Shown here: positions 12,543 to 55,280 of the stretch, in pieces
Numbering within the stretch: the first letter of the stretch is position 1
Layout of the letters: every line of letters starts with the position of its first letter
Assembly (NCBI GenBank): GCA_050943595.1
Contig: JBMNPM010000007.1
Span: 6,288-70,287, forward strand
DNA from: Thermoleophilia bacterium
GTDB lineage: Bacteria > Actinomycetota > Thermoleophilia > RBG-16-64-13
DNA length: 64,000 nt
Direction: 5' to 3'
Position numbers and translations under genes: made by a program
The notes under the pieces: model-generated
Seen by the model: the letters and a program-made list of their open reading frames with translations, nothing else
Told to the model about the DNA's origin: nothing
Databases searched by the model: none

Positions 12543-12864
12543 TGTTCCTCTCTTCTTCGTTCACGTTGCATTAGCCGCCTAAACTCTTTCTGTAGGAATC
12601 CACGCGTCCGTGCGTCAGTCCCTCCTTTCGACGGTGTCTGTGCCAGATCCGTCCCACCTGAGCAACTCCTGTGTCTAGTTGCTAAGCAAAAATCAGGAAT
12701 GCGCTTGGAAGAACCAAGACGAAACTGAAGAGCTCGAGATCATGCCTATGAGGCTGCTGAAAAACGAAGCCCCGGCTGCCAAACGGACGGTAATGGGGGG
12801 GATTCGGCGGCACTGAGCAACGTCTTTACGGCAACAACCACTCTCCGGATGTCACCGCCTTAAG

Positions 12865-13023
12865 AGGCTGCTGAAAAACGAAGCCCCGGCCCCCAGAACG
12901 CGCTGAGCAGCACGATAGTACGTCATCGGTTGCACGAATAGCGTTGCTATTCGTGCTCCCTCTATCCTTCTCTCGCGCGTGCTGATCGTGTTCTGGCGGC
13001 GAAGCGTCATATTTCAGCAGCTT
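12865..13023 (-). mobile_element. MITE-like repeat, copy 1 (TIR AGGCTGCTGAAA / TTTCAGCAGC; palindromic core).
   Basis: ~160 bp element, near-identical (reverse orientation) to the copies at 40651-40812 and 55091-55280. Inserted 4 nt downstream of the riboswitch terminator. Confidence 0.65.
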
Positions 13024-13026
13024 ATT

Positions 13027-13066
13027 AAAAAAATGGCGCCCTTGGGAATATCATCCCAAGAGCGCC
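13027..13066 (-). terminator. Rho-independent terminator (riboswitch expression platform).
   Basis: Minus-strand GGCGCUCUUGGGA-loop-UCCCAAGGGCGCC followed by U7. Confidence 0.7.
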
Positions 13067-13127
13067 GTATTCTGCCCTAGTCACCTAGTACCACACCCCT
13101 GATCTCGAGGGTATGCTTAGCCTCTCG

Positions 13128-13290
13128 CCTACGGGTAGGTATTCTGGCTCCCGGATCACTCTACCGGCTGCGCCTTCCCATCCCTGCGGACAGTGGCATC
13201 AGCAGCCTTCGTCCCCGATCACAGCGGCGGCACCGCGACGGACTCTCACCGTCTTCCCTTGTGGCTGTATTCCAGCCACCCGTAGCCACG
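13128..13290 (-). ncRNA. Cobalamin (AdoCbl) riboswitch.
   Basis: Minus-strand transcript contains AAGGGAAGACGGUGAGAGUCCGUCGCGGUGCCGCCGCUGUGA, B12 box GCCACUG, GGGAAGGC and AGCCAGAAUACCUACC. P1 CUACGGGUGG/CCACCCGUAG. Followed by a terminator. Confidence 0.85.
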
Positions 13291-13386
13291 CGTATTATTA
13301 ACATGCGGTCTGCAGTGCGTCAATATTCCACGCGCCCCCAGCCGCTCCATGAAAATATGAATCCGCCCGGCAGGCGCATAGGGTAG

Positions 13387-14949
13387 TCACAATCCCATCC
13401 CAACGATGGTTGCCAGCAGGTTCGTGTCAAGATAATCGGATATGTGGTCGGTGAGGCGGTCGATGGAGGCCGTGCCGGCCCGGACCGGCTCTCCGGAGGA
13501 TTGAGCCTCCGCTCTCGCCTTCTCCGGCAGGCCGGCCGTCCTCCTGAGACTATTGAGGAACCGGTCTCGCACGGCTAGATGATCGAACAGACCATGGACA
13601 TACGAGCCAAAGACTGTGCCATCGAGCGACACTGCACCTTCGTCATGAGAATCCCTGTCCGAACCTGCAGTTCCGACGTGGCCGCCTCTCTTCTTAAGAC
13701 GAAGAAGCGGGCGGGCGCTTGGCCCACGTCGGCTCCTTCCCATATGGATCTCATAGCCACTCACGGGCGTCCCTTCCGGGCCGATGCCGGCTCCTGTAAG
13801 CTCACCGGTCACCCGCACCGTCCGTTTGTCGCCACCGAAGACCGTCTCTATATCCAGCAATCCGAGTCCTTGAGCCGAGAAGACCGTTGACTCTACTCGA
13901 TTAGGGTCAAGAATGACCTTGCCCAGCATCTGATAGCCGCCGCAGATGCCCACCACCGGCACCCCCTCCGCCGCCTTTGCAACGATCGCGTCCGCCAACC
14001 CGCTCTCCCGTAGCCAGCGTAGGTCGTCGATTGTGCTCTTGGTGCCCGGAAGAATGATGGCGGCCTTTCCCTCGAGCTCACGGGGAGAGGTGACGAAAAC
14101 CACCGAGACATCCTGTTCGTCGGAGAGAGCGTCGAAGTCCGTGTAGTTTGAGATAAAGGGCAGTCGCACGACAGCGATACGGACGGCGGCATTAGGCTTC
14201 GTGCGTCTCTGCCGGTCTTCGATACCCAGAGAGTCCTCCTCGTCTCCTCTCCAATCACTCAGATAGGGGATCACTCCCAGGGTGGGGATAGCCGTCCGTT
14301 CTTCTAAGAAGCGAATGCCGGAATCGAGAAGGGACGCGTCACCCCGGAACTTGTTGATCACGAAAGCCCGCACCAGCGCGCGCTCCTCCGGTTCCAAGAG
14401 TTCGACCGTCCCGAAGAGTGAAGCAAACACGCCGCCCCGATCGATATCGGCGACCAGGAGTACTGGAGCCCGCGCATACAGGGCCACTTTCATGTTGACG
14501 ATGTCGTGGTCGCGCAGGTTGATCTCGGCGATGCTCCCCGCACCCTCCACCACGATCAGGTCGTTGGCCGCCCGCAGCCGATCCAGCGCAGCGGTGACCA
14601 CCGGCCAGACCTGTCTTTGATAGGCGTGATACTCCCGCACCGACATGTGCCCCACCGGCCGGCCGAGAACGATCACCTCACTGCCGGTTTGGGAGCTGGG
14701 CTTGAGGAGGATGGGGTTCATGTCCACGTGCGGCTCGATACCGGCCGCGTCGGCCTGGTAGGCCTGAGCCCGACCCAACTCACCGCCTTCGGCCGTGACG
14801 AAGGAGTTAAGGGCCATGTTCTGCGCCTTAAAGGGGGCAACCCGTAAGCCACGGCGCGCATACATGCGACAGAGCGCGGCGGCAAGAACGCTCTTGCCGA
14901 CGTGTGAGCCCGTGCCGGCCACCATGACCACCTGCGCGGGGGCGACCAT
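13387..14949 (-). CDS. cobQ: Cobyric acid synthase CobQ/CbiP.
   Basis: VMVAGTGSHVGKS nucleotide-binding motif and a GATase-1 C-terminal domain. Start ATG at 14949 (MVAPAQV) preferred over the longer ORF. Confidence 0.85.
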   Translation of the reverse strand: MVAPAQVVMVAGTGSHVGKSVLAAALCRMYARRGLRVAPFKAQNMALNSFVTAEGGELGRAQAYQADAAGIEPHVDMNPILLKPSSQTGSEVIVLGRPVGHMSVREYHAYQRQVWPVVTAALDRLRAANDLIVVEGAGSIAEINLRDHDIVNMKVALYARAPVLLVADIDRGGVFASLFGTVELLEPEERALVRAFVINKFRGDASLLDSGIRFLEERTAIPTLGVIPYLSDWRGDEEDSLGIEDRQRRTKPNAAVRIAVVRLPFISNYTDFDALSDEQDVSVVFVTSPRELEGKAAIILPGTKSTIDDLRWLRESGLADAIVAKAAEGVPVVGICGGYQMLGKVILDPNRVESTVFSAQGLGLLDIETVFGGDKRTVRVTGELTGAGIGPEGTPVSGYEIHMGRSRRGPSARPLLRLKKRGGHVGTAGSDRDSHDEGAVSLDGTVFGSYVHGLFDHLAVRDRFLNSLRRTAGLPEKARAEAQSSGEPVRAGTASIDRLTDHISDYLDTNLLATIVGMGL

Positions 14950-14965
14950 CAGTACTCGATCGCCA

Positions 14966-53359: not shown

Positions 53360-53446
53360 CAGGACTATCTGCCCACAGCGTACGAGAGTCCGCTATGACT
53401 TTATGCACTATCCGATGTTTTTATTCGCAAATCTGCAGGAAGATAC

Positions 53447-53650
53447 TTGACAGGCGGATGTGGATGAGTATACTGATATAAGGAGTCCCAAGAGATCAGA
53501 CGCAGCATCTGACAAGCTTACAAAAGGGGCCCGTGGAGGAAATGCGGAGACAAATAGCCGCAAAGTACGCAGAAGCGGGAGCAAAGTAAGACTCAGCGAC
53601 ACAGCGACAGATGCAAAGCGAGTTCACTTGGGACTCTCCATTTTTACCCA
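53447..53650 (+). ncRNA. Candidate orphan small RNA (consensus promoter, closing helix, U-tract).
   Basis: TTGACA-16 nt-TATACT promoter (53447-53474). 5' GGAGUCCCAAG pairs with 3' CUUGGGACUCUCC, followed by AUUUUUA. No ORF or downstream same-strand gene. Confidence 0.35.
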
Positions 53651-53781
53651 TATTTGTGCCCACACCTCCTTCATTGATCGCCGAATCACTCAAGCCCCTG
53701 CAGTAGTCCGCAGCCGCGCAGCCGTGATCTCGAGTGAATCGCCGGCCGTTCGATCACATCGTCAGGGGCAGCACATGCCGA

Positions 53782-53997
53782 CTATATGTCGTCCTTGGTC
53801 TTGTATTTGCGACTGAGGGCCAAACCGGCGGCGACCAACACAAGAGCGAGCACAATCATACCTATAGAGAGGCTGATCGGCAGAGTACCGATCCACGCCA
53901 CTCCCATCCCAATGACCGCTCCGACGATGAGAAGGAAGACGCCCAAGCGGTCGAGTTGCTTGTTGGTTGGCCTCTTCGTCTCGCCCCCCTCGGTCAC
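53782..53997 (-). CDS. Small two-TM membrane protein (71 aa), hypothetical.
   Basis: Two clear hydrophobic helices (VFLLIVGAVIGMGVAWI and IGMIVLALVLVAAGLAL) with a K-rich C-terminus. Confidence 0.35.
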   Translation of the reverse strand: MTEGGETKRPTNKQLDRLGVFLLIVGAVIGMGVAWIGTLPISLSIGMIVLALVLVAAGLALSRKYKTKDDI

Positions 53998-54137
53998 TGT
54001 TGAACCCGGGAAACCTACCAGCGCGCAGACCCGCCGTCAACCCCTTCGACCCCTTGCCTCAGAGGCCTTTCTCCCGTGCCCCGCAGGCCCTCCCTAGACG
54101 CACAGCACGCACAGCAGGTTATAAAGCAGGAGACAAA

Positions 54138-55040
54138 CTACTCGTCATCCCACCCGGCGCTACCCTTGTCGTCAGCGGTATACGCAAGGATGTTCTCAAC
54201 CTCGCCGGCCGACAGGGGCGGATTCCGAGCAAGCATGAGCGCAATCACCCCGGCAACCACAGGCGAAGCGAAAGAGGTGCCGTTAGAACAGCCGATGTCC
54301 CACCGGGAACCGCTCCCCTTGTCATATGTCGCCATGTGCTGGCCTGGCGCCACAAGATCGAGTTCCGAACCATAGCCATCGTTGCCCGCTGCAGCTACAA
54401 CTATGGCTCCGCGGCGTTGCGCGTGCTCAATCTGTGAACCGGCATAATCTTCGCCTTCCAGTCAACCCCCGCTATACCGATAGCGTTATTCCCTGTCGCA
54501 GCCAAGATTCCGGCTACAGCCCGTTCCGTGGCCTTCCTTGTCATTCCAATACTGGTAGGCAGAGCTACCATAATAGACGCTGTAAGGACTGACCACCCGA
54601 CCGGCAAAATCGGTGAGTTGGGCTAGGCCAGTATCAATGACGGACACCGTCACCGAGGTAGAACCGGTCGTAAGATCCCATGCCGCTGGAAGACCAATGG
54701 CGGCAGGCCCCCACTGCTTGGCGTACAAAAGGGGTGAACTTGACCACCAACCTGTCTGCTGCGGCCGGCGCTGGCTCATCAGCCGAGTAGAGCTGCGCGC
54801 TCACCAGCGACTGGGGGAGTCGCGAAGAACAGATAAATCGGCAACCTGCCCCGATACGCTGGTGATAGCTTCACCAGCCGGGATATCTCGTGCCGGTAGG
54901 GTTGCCAGATTTGGTACAGATAGAGCCAAAGCAGGCGCGGCCATTCCGCACACCGCCACTGTGATAGCCAGCAGGCAGGCGAGAGCAATGCTGGAAACAA
55001 AGGCGCCGCACAACCATCTTAGATTGAACAGCTCACGCAC
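54138..55040 (-). pseudogene. Subtilisin-like (S8) serine protease pseudogene split over three frames.
   Basis: Signal peptide (54801-55040 frame); Asp motif VSVIDTGL and His motif HGTG (54486-54779 frame); AAGNN (54401-54607 frame); Ser motif GTSFASPVVAGVIALM (54138-54353 frame). Confidence 0.65.
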
Positions 55041-55090
55041 CCTTCCCCTACACTGCTCCCGCCTGAAAAAATCATCGAATCATAGCCTTA

Positions 55091-55280
55091 AGCGGCTGCT
55101 GAACTATGACGCTTCGCCGCCGGAACACGATCAGCACGCATCAGCACGCGCGAAAAGAGGAGAGAGGGGGCGCGAATAGCAGCGCTATTCGCGCGACCGA
55201 TGACGTACTATCGTGCTGCTCAGTGTGTTCCGACGGCCGGGGTTTTGTTTTCCAGCAGCCCCCTATTTTCAGCAGCCTCC
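55091..55280 (+). mobile_element. MITE-like repeat, copy 3 (right TIR partially duplicated).
   Basis: AGCGGCTGCTGAACTATGACGCTTCGCCGCC...CGCGAATAGCAGCGCTATTCGCGCG...TTTTCCAGCAGCC..TTTTCAGCAGCCTCC. Confidence 0.65.

What the first reader, a model, noticed from the sequence alone, without database searches (positions are those of the whole stretch)
12751..55280. Novel ~165-bp MITE-like repeat family with TIRs AGGCTGCTGAAA and a compensatory-mutation-conserved palindromic core
Three full copies (12865-13023 reverse; 40651-40812; 55091-55280) share about 85-90% identity. Each has terminal inverted repeats (AGGCTGCTGAAA...TTTCAGCAGCCT) and an internal perfect palindrome CGCGAATAGC-AGC-GCTATTCGCG. 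In copy 1 the palindrome reads CACGAATAGC-AAC-GCTATTCGTG, so G:C->A:T changes occur on both arms and preserve pairing. This argues the hairpin (DNA cruciform or RNA stem) is under selection. There are also solo-TIR fragments at 12751-12776 and 11469-11487. Flanks are TA-rich (TTAAG / TAAG), suggesting a TTAA-type target. All copies sit in intergenic regulatory positions: after a riboswitch terminator, after the queG-like gene, and beside the protease pseudogene. No cognate transposase is present in the window.
Basis: seen in the sequence. Interest (0 to 1): 0.7.

Follow-up and report, generated by a model that had tools for sequence, protein, structure and literature searches.

The report
New palindromic MITE family, uncultured Bacillota
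The three ~160-190-bp repeats are real copies of a previously uncatalogued miniature, non-coding transposon (MITE) of an uncultured anaerobic bacterium; it is a new family of a well-known kind, and in a related contig it sits in-frame inside an enzyme gene.

Summary
The window holds three full copies: 12865-13023 (-), 40651-40809 (+) and 55093-55278 (+). They are 84-87% identical to each other. There is also a 40-nt right-end fragment (12750-12785) and an 18-nt solo end (11475-11493).

I found three more full copies at unrelated loci in other metagenome assemblies (L002, L007, L008; 85-93% identical to the window copies).

Each copy has 12-13-nt terminal inverted repeats, (S)AGGCTGCTGAAA. Each is flanked by YTAR tetranucleotides with an invariant TA. 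Each folds end to end into one long hairpin (-80 to -88 kcal/mol, z about -8 to -9).

One copy (L007) is a clean in-frame 55-aa insertion in a PaaK-like CoA ligase. All 120 listed homologues lack it, which is direct evidence of insertion.

Five stem pairs show double-sided changes, against 1.9 expected. This is modest evidence that pairing is maintained.

No transposase lies in the window, and no related sequence turned up in Rfam, GTDB representative genomes, plasmids, phages or viral contigs.

Verdict: a new MITE family of a known kind. The parent IS and the TSD length (TA or YTAR) remain unresolved. Interest is low to moderate.

The parts
12865..13023 (-). Copy c1, full length (159 nt from AAGCTGCTGAAA to TTTCAGCAGCCT on the minus strand). 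It is flanked by TTAA at 13025-13028 and at 12860-12863. It sits directly after the U-tract of the terminator of the cobalamin riboswitch (aptamer 13117-13298, terminator 13035-13066), in the roughly 490-nt leader of the cbiK-like lipoprotein gene (start 12542).
12750..12785 (-). Truncated copy holding only the right-end ~40 nt (CGTT-TGGCAGCCGGGGCTTCGTTTTTCAGCAGCCTCATA), in the same orientation as c1 and 75 nt downstream of it. It is conserved in a strain that is 97% identical (L090), whose contig breaks inside it.
11475..11493 (+). Solo end: TTAA-G-AGGCTGCTGAAA-TA, 18 nt matching the element's left end. It lies between the cbiK-like and NEAT-like genes, next to a strong hairpin and the Shine-Dalgarno sequence of the downstream gene. 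It is identical in strain L090.
40651..40809 (+). Copy c2, full length (159 nt) with perfect 12-nt TIRs. The right flank is C-CTAA (40810-40814). The left flank is CCAAA, with no TA. It lies between the divergent queG-like gene (GTG 40625, minus strand) and the DUF4389 gene (ATG 41014, plus strand).
55093..55278 (+). Copy c3 (186 nt). The left flank is TTAA-G (55088-55092). It carries an internal 10-nt duplication (ATCAGCACGC, about 55131-55150) and a 17-nt duplication of the right end plus TA (inner end 55250-55265, outer end 55266-55279). The right flank is CTAA (55280-55283). It lies between a degraded peptidase-S8 pseudogene region and the 3' end of an SLH-domain gene.

Best explanation
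The repeats are copies of a non-autonomous DNA transposon (a MITE).

Structure: each copy is about 160 bp and encodes no transposase. It is bounded by 12-13-nt terminal inverted repeats, (S)AGGCTGCTGAAA ... TTTCAGCAGCCT(S). The left and right halves are largely complementary, so the whole element is one long imperfect palindrome.

Inferred mechanism: a DDE transposase encoded elsewhere in the host genome binds the two ends and inserts the element at a TA-centred YTAR site. It duplicates either the TA (IS630/Tc1-like) or the whole YTAR (IS5-like).

After insertion the element is passive DNA that is read as part of whatever it landed in. In the window, that means a riboswitch-controlled mRNA leader (c1), a 5' UTR or divergent promoter region (c2) and a convergent 3' region (c3). 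One forward reading frame can be stop-free. Through that frame a copy survives as an in-frame, probably disordered, 55-aa loop in a CoA ligase gene (L007).

What is shown: the repeat family, the TIRs, the flank motif, the hairpin, dispersal to at least 6 unrelated loci, one proven insertion, and the absence of a transposase in the window.

What is inferred: trans-mobilisation by a DDE transposase, the family of that enzyme, the TSD length, and any effect on neighbouring genes.
For: - Six full copies at six unrelated loci, 84-93% identical: three in the window plus L002, L007 and L008.
- TIR 11-mer enrichment: 10 hits against 1.25 expected in the window. There are no hits of the 12-mer in about 1 Mb from 80 unrelated genomes.
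- Flanks: 11 of 13 tetranucleotides adjacent to the ends fit YTAR. TA is present on both sides in c1, c3, L007 and L008. c1 has TTAA on both sides.
- Whole-element hairpin: RNA MFE -80 to -88 kcal/mol, z -7.5 to -9.3 against shuffles. The profile also matches its own reverse complement, E about 1e-12 to 1e-20.
- Proven insertion: P0001 (504 aa) carries 55 extra residues exactly where the L007 copy lies. All 120 listed homologues (about 400-545 aa, nearly all 430-475) lack them. The net insert is 165 nt, which equals the 159-nt element plus 6 nt of the CCTARC flank. The AlphaFold model keeps both flanking domains at pLDDT above 90, while the insert is below 50.
- Independent assemblies of the same strain or of a 97%-identical strain break inside the repeat (L089, L092, L090). 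This is expected of a multi-copy repeat.
- The element has no conserved ORF, because the frames are broken by indels between copies.
- No transposase domain was found in any window ORF scanned.
- These properties match the published definition of bacterial MITEs: 100-200 bp, TIRs, TSD, TA at the termini, long stem-loop, and ORFs fused in frame to host ORFs (PMC2229807).
Against: - No cognate autonomous IS with the same ends was found. The rest of the genome is not available to me.
- The flanking duplication is perfect as a 4-mer only in c1. c2 and L002 lack the left TA. The TSD length is therefore unproven.
- No strain-level filled-versus-empty polymorphism was seen. The 100%- and 97%-identical strains carry the same insertions.
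- Only six full copies are known. The genome-wide copy number is an extrapolation (3 copies in 64 kb).
- Five compensatory pair changes hint at some constraint on pairing. A purely selfish, decaying element would not need that constraint.
Confidence: 0.8

Rival explanations
1. A functional, selected structured element: an RNA hairpin acting in cis on mRNA leaders or 3' ends (processing site, stabiliser or attenuator), or a DNA cruciform or protein-binding palindrome. It would have spread by any means, and its pairing would be kept by selection at each locus.
For: - Five of 59 predicted pairs show double-sided changes against 1.9 +/- 1.0 in shuffles (2 of 500 shuffles reach 5). For four of the five, the one-sided intermediate is seen in another copy.
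- The forward strand folds 4-11 kcal/mol better than the reverse strand in 5 of 6 copies, because of G.U pairs.
- c1 lies in a riboswitch leader, and c2 lies 10 nt from a Shine-Dalgarno sequence.
- Compensatory changes are reported for the Bacillus bcr1 repeats (PMC3184786).
Against: - There is no Rfam match even at E <= 1.
- Orientation relative to transcription is not consistent: c2 is antisense to the queG-like leader, and c3 lies between convergent genes.
- Paired columns are not clearly less variable than unpaired ones (30/118 against 16/41).
- Copies occur inside coding sequence.
- With six sequences, the shuffle test can be exceeded through relatedness alone (caveat stated).
- Arm-to-arm templated correction in palindromes would give the same pattern without any function.
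Confidence: 0.1
2. A palindromic element moved by a different mechanism than a DDE transposase binding the TIRs. Examples are a REP/BIME-type unit mobilised by a RAYT (Y1) transposase, or an IS200/IS605-type palindrome-associated element transposing as single-stranded hairpin DNA.
For: The whole element is a hairpin, and pairing appears to be maintained. This would matter for a single-strand, hairpin-recognising enzyme. No DDE partner has been found.
Against: - The element is about 160 bp with perfect terminal inverted repeats and a symmetric TA/YTAR flank on both sides. REPs are 20-40-nt units. IS200/IS605-type elements lack TIRs and insert next to a one-sided target without duplication (established knowledge; REP properties in PMC2817692 and PMC3184786).
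- No Y1 transposase domain appears in the window ORFs scanned.
Confidence: 0.06
3. An assembly or chimerism artefact, or a repeat confined to this one contig.
For: Palindromic repeats can cause misassembly. Logan contigs break inside the element.
Against: The same copies are reproduced base for base in independent assemblies (JGI, Logan). Other copies occur with different flanks in JGI sample 3300062814 and in an ENA bioreactor assembly.
Confidence: 0.01

Closest known systems
Bacterial MITEs with TA termini: RUP of Streptococcus pneumoniae (IS630-Spn1-related), Correia/NEMIS of Neisseria, and ERIC (as summarised in PMC2229807)
   Same: Size of 100-200 bp, TIRs of 7-24 bp, TA at both termini, end-to-end stem-loop, mostly intergenic location, sometimes fused to ORFs, and no transposase of their own.
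   Different: No sequence similarity was detected to anything in the libraries searched. The host is an uncultured Bacillota-like lineage. The cognate IS is unknown. It is not settled whether TA (2 bp) or YTAR (4 bp) is duplicated.
Rickettsia palindromic elements (RPE)
   Same: A palindromic repeat of about 150 bp with 12-bp TIRs that can insert in frame into conserved protein genes and add a peptide of about 50 aa (PMC2229807). Here the L007 copy adds 55 aa, predicted disordered, to a PaaK-like CoA ligase.
   Different: The host and the sequence are unrelated. Only one clear in-frame case is known here, and it was found by a protein-based search that could only find such cases. There is no evidence that the peptide is selected.
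bcr1 repeats of the Bacillus cereus group
   Same: A Firmicutes repeat of about 155 bp, dispersed, with base-pair compensatory changes that maintain a predicted structure (PMC3184786).
   Different: bcr1 has 5-bp direct repeats and two independent stem-loops. This element has TA/YTAR flanks and a single end-to-end hairpin with a small apical palindrome.
IS5-family (YTAR, 4-bp TSD) and IS630/Tc1-mariner-family (TA TSD) insertion sequences, as candidate parents
   Same: The flanking tetranucleotides CTAA, CTAG, TTAA and TTAG fit the IS5 target motif 5'-YTAR-3' (PMC5009759). The invariant TA fits IS630-type insertion, as for RUP (PMC2229807).
   Different: No transposase gene with these ends was found. 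TIR similarity to any named IS could not be tested, because no ISfinder library was available.

Membership tests
Bacterial MITE (criteria of PMC2229807 / PMC3184786) | Small size (about 100-300 bp) with no transposase coding capacity | tested here: met
   Copies are 159-186 bp. The six-frame translations show no frame conserved across copies.
Bacterial MITE (criteria of PMC2229807 / PMC3184786) | Terminal inverted repeats | tested here: met
   The TIR is AGGCTGCTGAAA / TTTCAGCAGCCT. It is perfect in c2 and L008 and has 1-2 mismatches in the other copies.
Bacterial MITE (criteria of PMC2229807 / PMC3184786) | Target-site duplication flanking each copy | tested here: inconclusive
   TA is present on both sides in 4 of 6 copies. 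YTAR fits 11 of 13 flanks. An identical 4-mer on both sides is seen only in c1 (TTAA). The L007 insertion adds the element plus 6 nt of CCTARC. A 2-bp and a 4-bp duplication cannot be told apart.
Bacterial MITE (criteria of PMC2229807 / PMC3184786) | Multiple dispersed copies | tested here: met
   Six full copies at unrelated loci plus two fragments. Contigs break inside the repeat in three Logan contigs. The genome-wide count is unknown.
Bacterial MITE (criteria of PMC2229807 / PMC3184786) | Stable end-to-end stem-loop | tested here: met
   MFE is -80 to -88 kcal/mol with z of -7.5 to -9.3. The consensus structure has 59 pairs, and 94% of cells are paired.
Bacterial MITE (criteria of PMC2229807 / PMC3184786) | Filled versus empty sites (evidence of insertion) | tested here: met
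   The 55-aa in-frame insert in P0001 is absent from all 120 listed homologues. No polymorphism was found between the closely related strains examined.
Bacterial MITE (criteria of PMC2229807 / PMC3184786) | Cognate autonomous IS with matching TIRs in the same or a related genome | not testable with these tools
   There is no transposase domain in the window ORFs scanned. The rest of the 112-kb contig and the genome could not be fetched. No ISfinder library was available.
IS630-derived MITE (RUP type) | Duplication of the TA dinucleotide and TIRs similar to an IS630-family element | tested here: inconclusive
   TA at both termini in 4 of 6 copies is compatible. The TIR comparison with IS630 members was not possible.
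IS5-family-derived MITE | 4-bp YTAR target duplication | tested here: inconclusive
   All four pairs of flanks fit YTAR, but only one of the four pairs is identical. The mismatches are transitions at the outer positions (motif from PMC5009759).
REP/BIME (RAYT-associated) | Short (20-40 nt) GC-rich palindromic units without TIRs, associated with a RAYT gene | tested here: not met
   The element is about 160 bp with TIRs and symmetric TA flanks. No Y1 transposase was found in the window.
bcr1 (Bacillus cereus group) | 5-bp direct repeats and a cruciform of two independent stem-loops | tested here: not met
   The flanks are TA/YTAR and the fold is a single end-to-end hairpin. The bcr1 properties are from PMC3184786.
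Any Rfam RNA family | Covariance-model match | tested here: not met
   No hit at gathering threshold in the window, and none at E <= 1 on c2. On c1 only a chance-level Cyano-2 match appeared (14 bits against a gathering score of 40).
Rickettsia palindromic elements | Sequence membership in an RPE family | not tested
   No RPE library was available. The resemblance is in behaviour only (in-frame insertion).

The most novel reading that the evidence does not exclude
The end-to-end hairpin is kept by selection because the element does something after insertion. It could act as a cis RNA module, for example a double-strand RNase target or a leader or 3' hairpin. c1 in the B12-riboswitch leader and c2 abutting a ribosome-binding site would then be domesticated examples. 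Alternatively it could act as an RPE-like donor of tolerated peptide loops to enzymes in a deep-branching, uncultured Bacillota lineage.
Probability: 0.12. Interest if true: 0.55.

Novelty: new member of a known kind. Interest (0 to 1): 0.3.

Why it matters
- It adds an uncatalogued MITE family from a poorly sampled, uncultured anaerobic lineage. Its CobQ is at most 58% identical to that of any GTDB species representative.
- It documents a clean in-frame MITE insertion in a conserved CoA ligase, a behaviour best known from Rickettsia RPEs.
- It shows a MITE lodged between a cobalamin riboswitch terminator and the gene the riboswitch controls.
- In practice, the repeat fragments assemblies of this organism and causes gene callers to extend or fuse ORFs. 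Recognising it improves binning and annotation.
- It does not open a new mechanism.

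Tried and rejected
- Genome-contig scan with the internal 20-specified-base pattern ACCGATGANGNACTATCGTGCT: 0 hits.
- Metagenome-contig scan with the same pattern: one true copy (L002) and one chance match inside a coding region (L003). The source metagenome itself is not in that collection.
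- Viral-contig scan with the core palindrome: 0 hits. blastn against plasmids and phages: no match.
- Rfam: nothing.
- Trick that worked once: searching the protein database with concatenated six-frame translations of the repeat gave P0001 and P0002, and hence L007 and L008.
- Repeat of that trick with a longer 1153-aa chimeric query: nothing returned, not even P0001 or P0002. Spurious candidates probably saturated the 8000-candidate list. This wasted the last protein search.
- CobQ-based genome scan, intended to find close relatives and empty sites: the best hit was 58% identical, too distant. None of the 80 loci holds the repeat or its TIR.
- Look-ups of window proteins in other assemblies: only the same strain or a 97%-identical strain with the same insertions, so no empty site.
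- The 75-nt spacer between c1 and the truncated copy is not significantly element-like (score 15 against 14.8 +/- 2.2 in shuffles). Nested insertion is not supported.
- Orientation bias relative to transcription: considered and dropped. The two in-ORF copies are forced to be forward by ascertainment. c2 and c3 are ambiguous or opposite.
- attC/integron reading (the CCTAAC-like flank): rejected. The right flank is not the complement GTTRRRY, and no integrase is present.
- Literature search for the TIR string gave only unrelated primer hits.

Full report

Yes. Reading the three stated places shows three clearly homologous stretches. The copies are:

| Copy | Coordinates | Strand | Length |
|---|---|---|---|
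| c1 | 12865-13023 | - | 159 nt |
| c2 | 40651-40809 | + | 159 nt |
| c3 | 55093-55278 | + | 186 nt |

- A repeat scan finds them as the longest repeats of the window, with arms of 111-126 nt at 85-87% identity.
- A profile built from the copies scores each at E = 1e-57 to 1e-63.
- The end motif GGCTGCTGAAA (at most 1 mismatch) occurs 10 times against 1.25 +/- 1.16 in shuffles.
- The 12-mer is absent from about 1 Mb of 80 unrelated genomes fetched later.
- The two fragments are also real. One is a 40-nt right end at 12750-12785 (minus strand), 75 nt downstream of c1. The other is an 18-nt solo end at 11475-11493.

Details needing correction:
- Only c2 has perfect TIRs.
- c3 has a 10-nt internal duplication and a 17-nt duplication of its right end plus the flanking TA.
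- c2 lies upstream of the queG-like gene, not after it. On the minus strand, AAGGAGG and the GTG start at 40625 follow the element by about 10 nt.

**2. Where the window comes from**

The window is part of a 112-kb JGI metagenome contig (3300060803, Ga0591958_0000295).

Gene content:
- Anaerobic cobalamin synthesis genes: cbiA/C/D/G/J/K, cobQ and cobD.
- nrdD and metE.
- SLH-domain surface proteins.
- Desulfoferrodoxin, encoded just beyond the window's end on the same contig (L001).
- GerM next to one of the repeat copies in another contig.

This points to an anaerobic, spore-forming Bacillota-like organism.

Its CobQ is at most 58% identical to that of any of the 185,579 GTDB species representatives. 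No close genome is available. That limited everything that follows.

**3. More copies elsewhere**

- A scan of GTDB representatives with a conserved internal 22-mer found nothing.
- The metagenome collection gave one true copy, downstream of an MFS-type gene in an ENA bioreactor contig (L002).
- The element has a partly open reading frame, so I searched the protein database with its six-frame translations. This gave two called proteins that contain it, and their contigs L007 and L008.

The family now has six full copies at six unrelated loci, 84-93% identical.

Independent Logan assemblies of the same strain and of a 97%-identical strain end inside the repeat:
- L089 starts at window 40723 and L092 ends at 40749. 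They overlap on the invariant core.
- L090 starts in the truncated copy at 12779.

This is the behaviour of a multi-copy repeat in a de Bruijn graph. Three copies in 64 kb would extrapolate to the order of 100 per genome, but that figure is a guess.

**4. Anatomy**

*Ends.* The TIR is AGGCTGCTGAAA on the left and TTTCAGCAGCCT on the right, usually with one further S base.

*Flanks.* The tetranucleotide next to that base on each side:

| Site | Left | Right |
|---|---|---|
| c1 | TTAA | TTAA |
| c2 | (CCAA) | CTAA |
| c3 | TTAA | CTAT (inner), CTAA (outer) |
| L002 | (CCAG) | TTAG |
| L007 | CTAA | CTAG |
| L008 | CTAG | CTAA |
| solo end | TTAA | - |
| truncated copy | - | ATAG |

Eleven of 13 fit YTAR, and the central TA is never mutated where the motif is present.

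The TIRs and subterminal regions pair with each other.
- RNA MFE is -80 to -88 kcal/mol, with z of -7.5 to -9.3.
- The family profile matches its own reverse complement.
- The centre is asymmetric. A purine-rich stretch (GAGAGAAGGATAGAGGGAG) on the left has no partner.

*Coding.* No frame is conserved. Single-base and 10-nt indels shift the frames between copies.

*Terminal duplications.* These recur: 17 nt at the right end of c3, and three tandem 15-nt left ends (TAGCAGGCTGCTGAA) in L008. Each unit consists of a TIR plus TA. I cannot say whether this reflects slippage or aberrant transposition.

**5. Evidence that it inserts**

P0001 (L007) is a DVU_1553/PaaK-like AMP-dependent CoA ligase of 504 aa.
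- All 120 listed homologues (about 400-545 aa, nearly all 430-475) align on both sides of a gap that is exactly the repeat...VVHIRP-N[RLLKYD...FVFQQSP]SV-GAF... against ...VVHTRP-CD-GAS....
- The net gain is 55 codons, or 165 nt. That equals the 159-nt element plus 6 nt, because the sequence CCTAAC before the element recurs as CCTAGC after it.
- This arithmetic fits a TA, a CTAR or a CCTARC duplication equally well. It proves insertion but does not fix the TSD length.
- An AlphaFold model (37-sequence alignment, pTM 0.83) keeps both flanking parts above pLDDT 90. Residues 395-447 are an unstructured loop with pLDDT below 50, between a strand and a helix of the C-terminal domain.
- The invariant C-terminal K493 and R494 are retained.
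- The gene may therefore still work. That is an inference.

In L008 the element lies in a 5' extension of the gerM ORF, just before a lipoprotein signal peptide. Whether that extension is translated is unknown. Both in-ORF cases were found because they are in ORFs, so they say nothing about how often this happens.

**6. The compensatory changes**

On the six-copy alignment the consensus fold has 59 pairs, and 94.3% of cells are paired.
- Five pairs carry a change on both sides, against 1.9 +/- 1.0 in column shuffles (2 of 500 reach 5) and 0-2 in slid controls.
- The other four are in the outer stem. For each of them, another copy shows the one-sided intermediate.
- This is more than nothing, but it rests on six related sequences.
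- Paired columns are not clearly more conserved than unpaired ones (30/118 against 16/41 variable).
- The forward strand folds better than the reverse in 5 of 6 copies, because of a few fixed G.T pairs. All of those pairs are inherited from one ancestor.

Three explanations remain open:
- Selection on an RNA or DNA hairpin.
- Selection within the actively transposing lineages.
- Arm-to-arm templated correction, which palindromes are prone to.

In the core, the two changes in c1 are the same C-to-T event in the same sequence context on opposite strands. Compensatory changes in a Firmicutes repeat of similar size (bcr1) are already on record (PMC3184786).

**7. Context of the window copies**

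*c1.*
- A promoter-like site (13323 to 13294), the cobalamin aptamer (13298-13117) and an intrinsic terminator (13066-13035, followed by ATTTTTTTAA) lie immediately upstream of c1 on the minus strand.
- c1 begins in the TTAA that ends the U-tract.
- Downstream of c1 come a 75-nt spacer, the truncated copy and about 200 nt.
- Then come the GTG start at 12542 of a CbiK-like lipoprotein, a NEAT-like protein and a BtuFCD-type ABC transporter.
- Read-through transcripts must therefore carry a -88 kcal/mol hairpin in their leader. Its effect is unknown.
- The truncated copy and the solo end are present in the 97% strain, which was the only part of this locus recovered from that strain. The insertion that left them is therefore older than that strain split.

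*c2.* It lies between divergent genes. A promoter-like site for the queG-like gene lies beyond it (40962 to 40934). This would put the reverse complement of the element in that gene's 5' UTR.

*c3.* It lies between a degraded peptidase-S8 pseudogene and the 3' end of an SLH gene.

No ORF I scanned in the window has a transposase domain.

**8. What it is, and how it compares**

The features are exactly those listed for bacterial MITEs: 100-200 bp, TIRs, TSD, TA at the termini, a long stem-loop, mainly intergenic location, and frames that can fuse to host ORFs (PMC2229807).

The flank motif matches two known target types:
- the 5'-YTAR-3' duplication of IS5 (PMC5009759);
- the TA target of IS630-type elements, such as the proposed partner of RUP (PMC2229807).

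With four informative copies I cannot choose between them.
- Under the 4-bp model, three of the four pairs need one transition each.
- Under the TA model, none needs any.
- The expected decay at this level of divergence would produce about that many mismatches anyway.

The in-frame insertion is behaviour known from Rickettsia RPEs. REP/RAYT, IS200/IS605-type, attC and Rfam readings fail on defining features (see the membership table).

I therefore file it as a new family of a known kind, with the parent IS unidentified.

**9. Verdict**

- Novelty: a new member of a known kind.
- Interest: about 0.3.
- The most novel reading still open is a domesticated RNA hairpin module or an RPE-like peptide-loop donor. 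I put it at about 0.12.

Noticed in passing
L007:3446-3616 (JGI 3300062814, Ga0591955_0078282): A copy of the element is an in-frame 55-aa insertion in a DVU_1553/PaaK-like CoA ligase (P0001, 504 aa against about 445 aa in homologues). It is predicted to be a disordered loop, with both flanking domains modelled at high confidence.
   Followed up: yes
L008:2118-2168 and window 55250-55283: The element's ends are tandemly duplicated together with the flanking TA: three 15-nt left-end units (TAGCAGGCTGCTGAA) in L008 and two 17-nt right-end units in c3. It is unexplained whether this is slippage or aberrant transposition.
   Followed up: partly
window 9338-13323 (minus strand): The second cobalamin riboswitch controls an unusual set of genes. 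These are a CbiK-like protein with a lipoprotein signal peptide and a VKDEG-repeat linker, a NEAT-like protein (below the Pfam cut-off), and a periplasmic-binding/FecCD/ABC ATPase transporter followed by cobD. This looks like an extracytoplasmic corrinoid or tetrapyrrole capture and uptake system rather than a biosynthetic chelatase.
   Followed up: partly
window 11494-11535: A strong hairpin (CCAGGGCGCACACC...GGTGTGCGCCCTGG) abuts the solo element end, between the cbiK-like and NEAT-like genes. It is identical in the 97% strain (L090).
   Followed up: partly
window 32001-34000: GC content drops to 36%, against about 60% elsewhere, inside a 1037-aa 7TM-GGDEF-EAL gene (31179-34292, minus strand). 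This may be a foreign or compositionally odd segment.
   Followed up: no
window 59020-59123 and 63846-63949: A 104-nt direct repeat (87% identical) is the shared 5' or N-terminal region (signal-peptide area) of two large surface proteins, the 771-aa SLH protein and the 924-aa protein. For the latter, the repeat lies upstream of the listed ATG, so its true start may be further upstream.
   Followed up: partly
window 53400-55080 (minus strand): A degraded peptidase-S8 pseudogene. Only two fragments still match the Pfam profile (positions 60-87 and 233-283), in different short ORFs. A 180-aa plus-strand ORF called by JGI runs into c3.
   Followed up: partly
whole window; L009-L088: The host lineage has no close representative. 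The best CobQ match among GTDB r232 species genomes is 58% identical (an uncultured Eubacteriales MAG). The same organism recurs in several JGI samples (Ga0591955-62) and in Logan runs SRR31066172 (100% identical) and SRR11702766 (97%).
   Followed up: partly
window 14966-16444 and 20213-22285: Two fused cobalamin-pathway genes: CbiJ with the CobO/BtuR adenosyltransferase, and CbiD with a tetrapyrrole methylase.
   Followed up: no
window 43436-43462: A weak end-like motif (AGGCTGCTGGAAAAT...CCCCCCAG) lies just upstream of the carboxylesterase gene start. The alignment score is near chance, so it may be a decayed end or a coincidence.
   Followed up: partly
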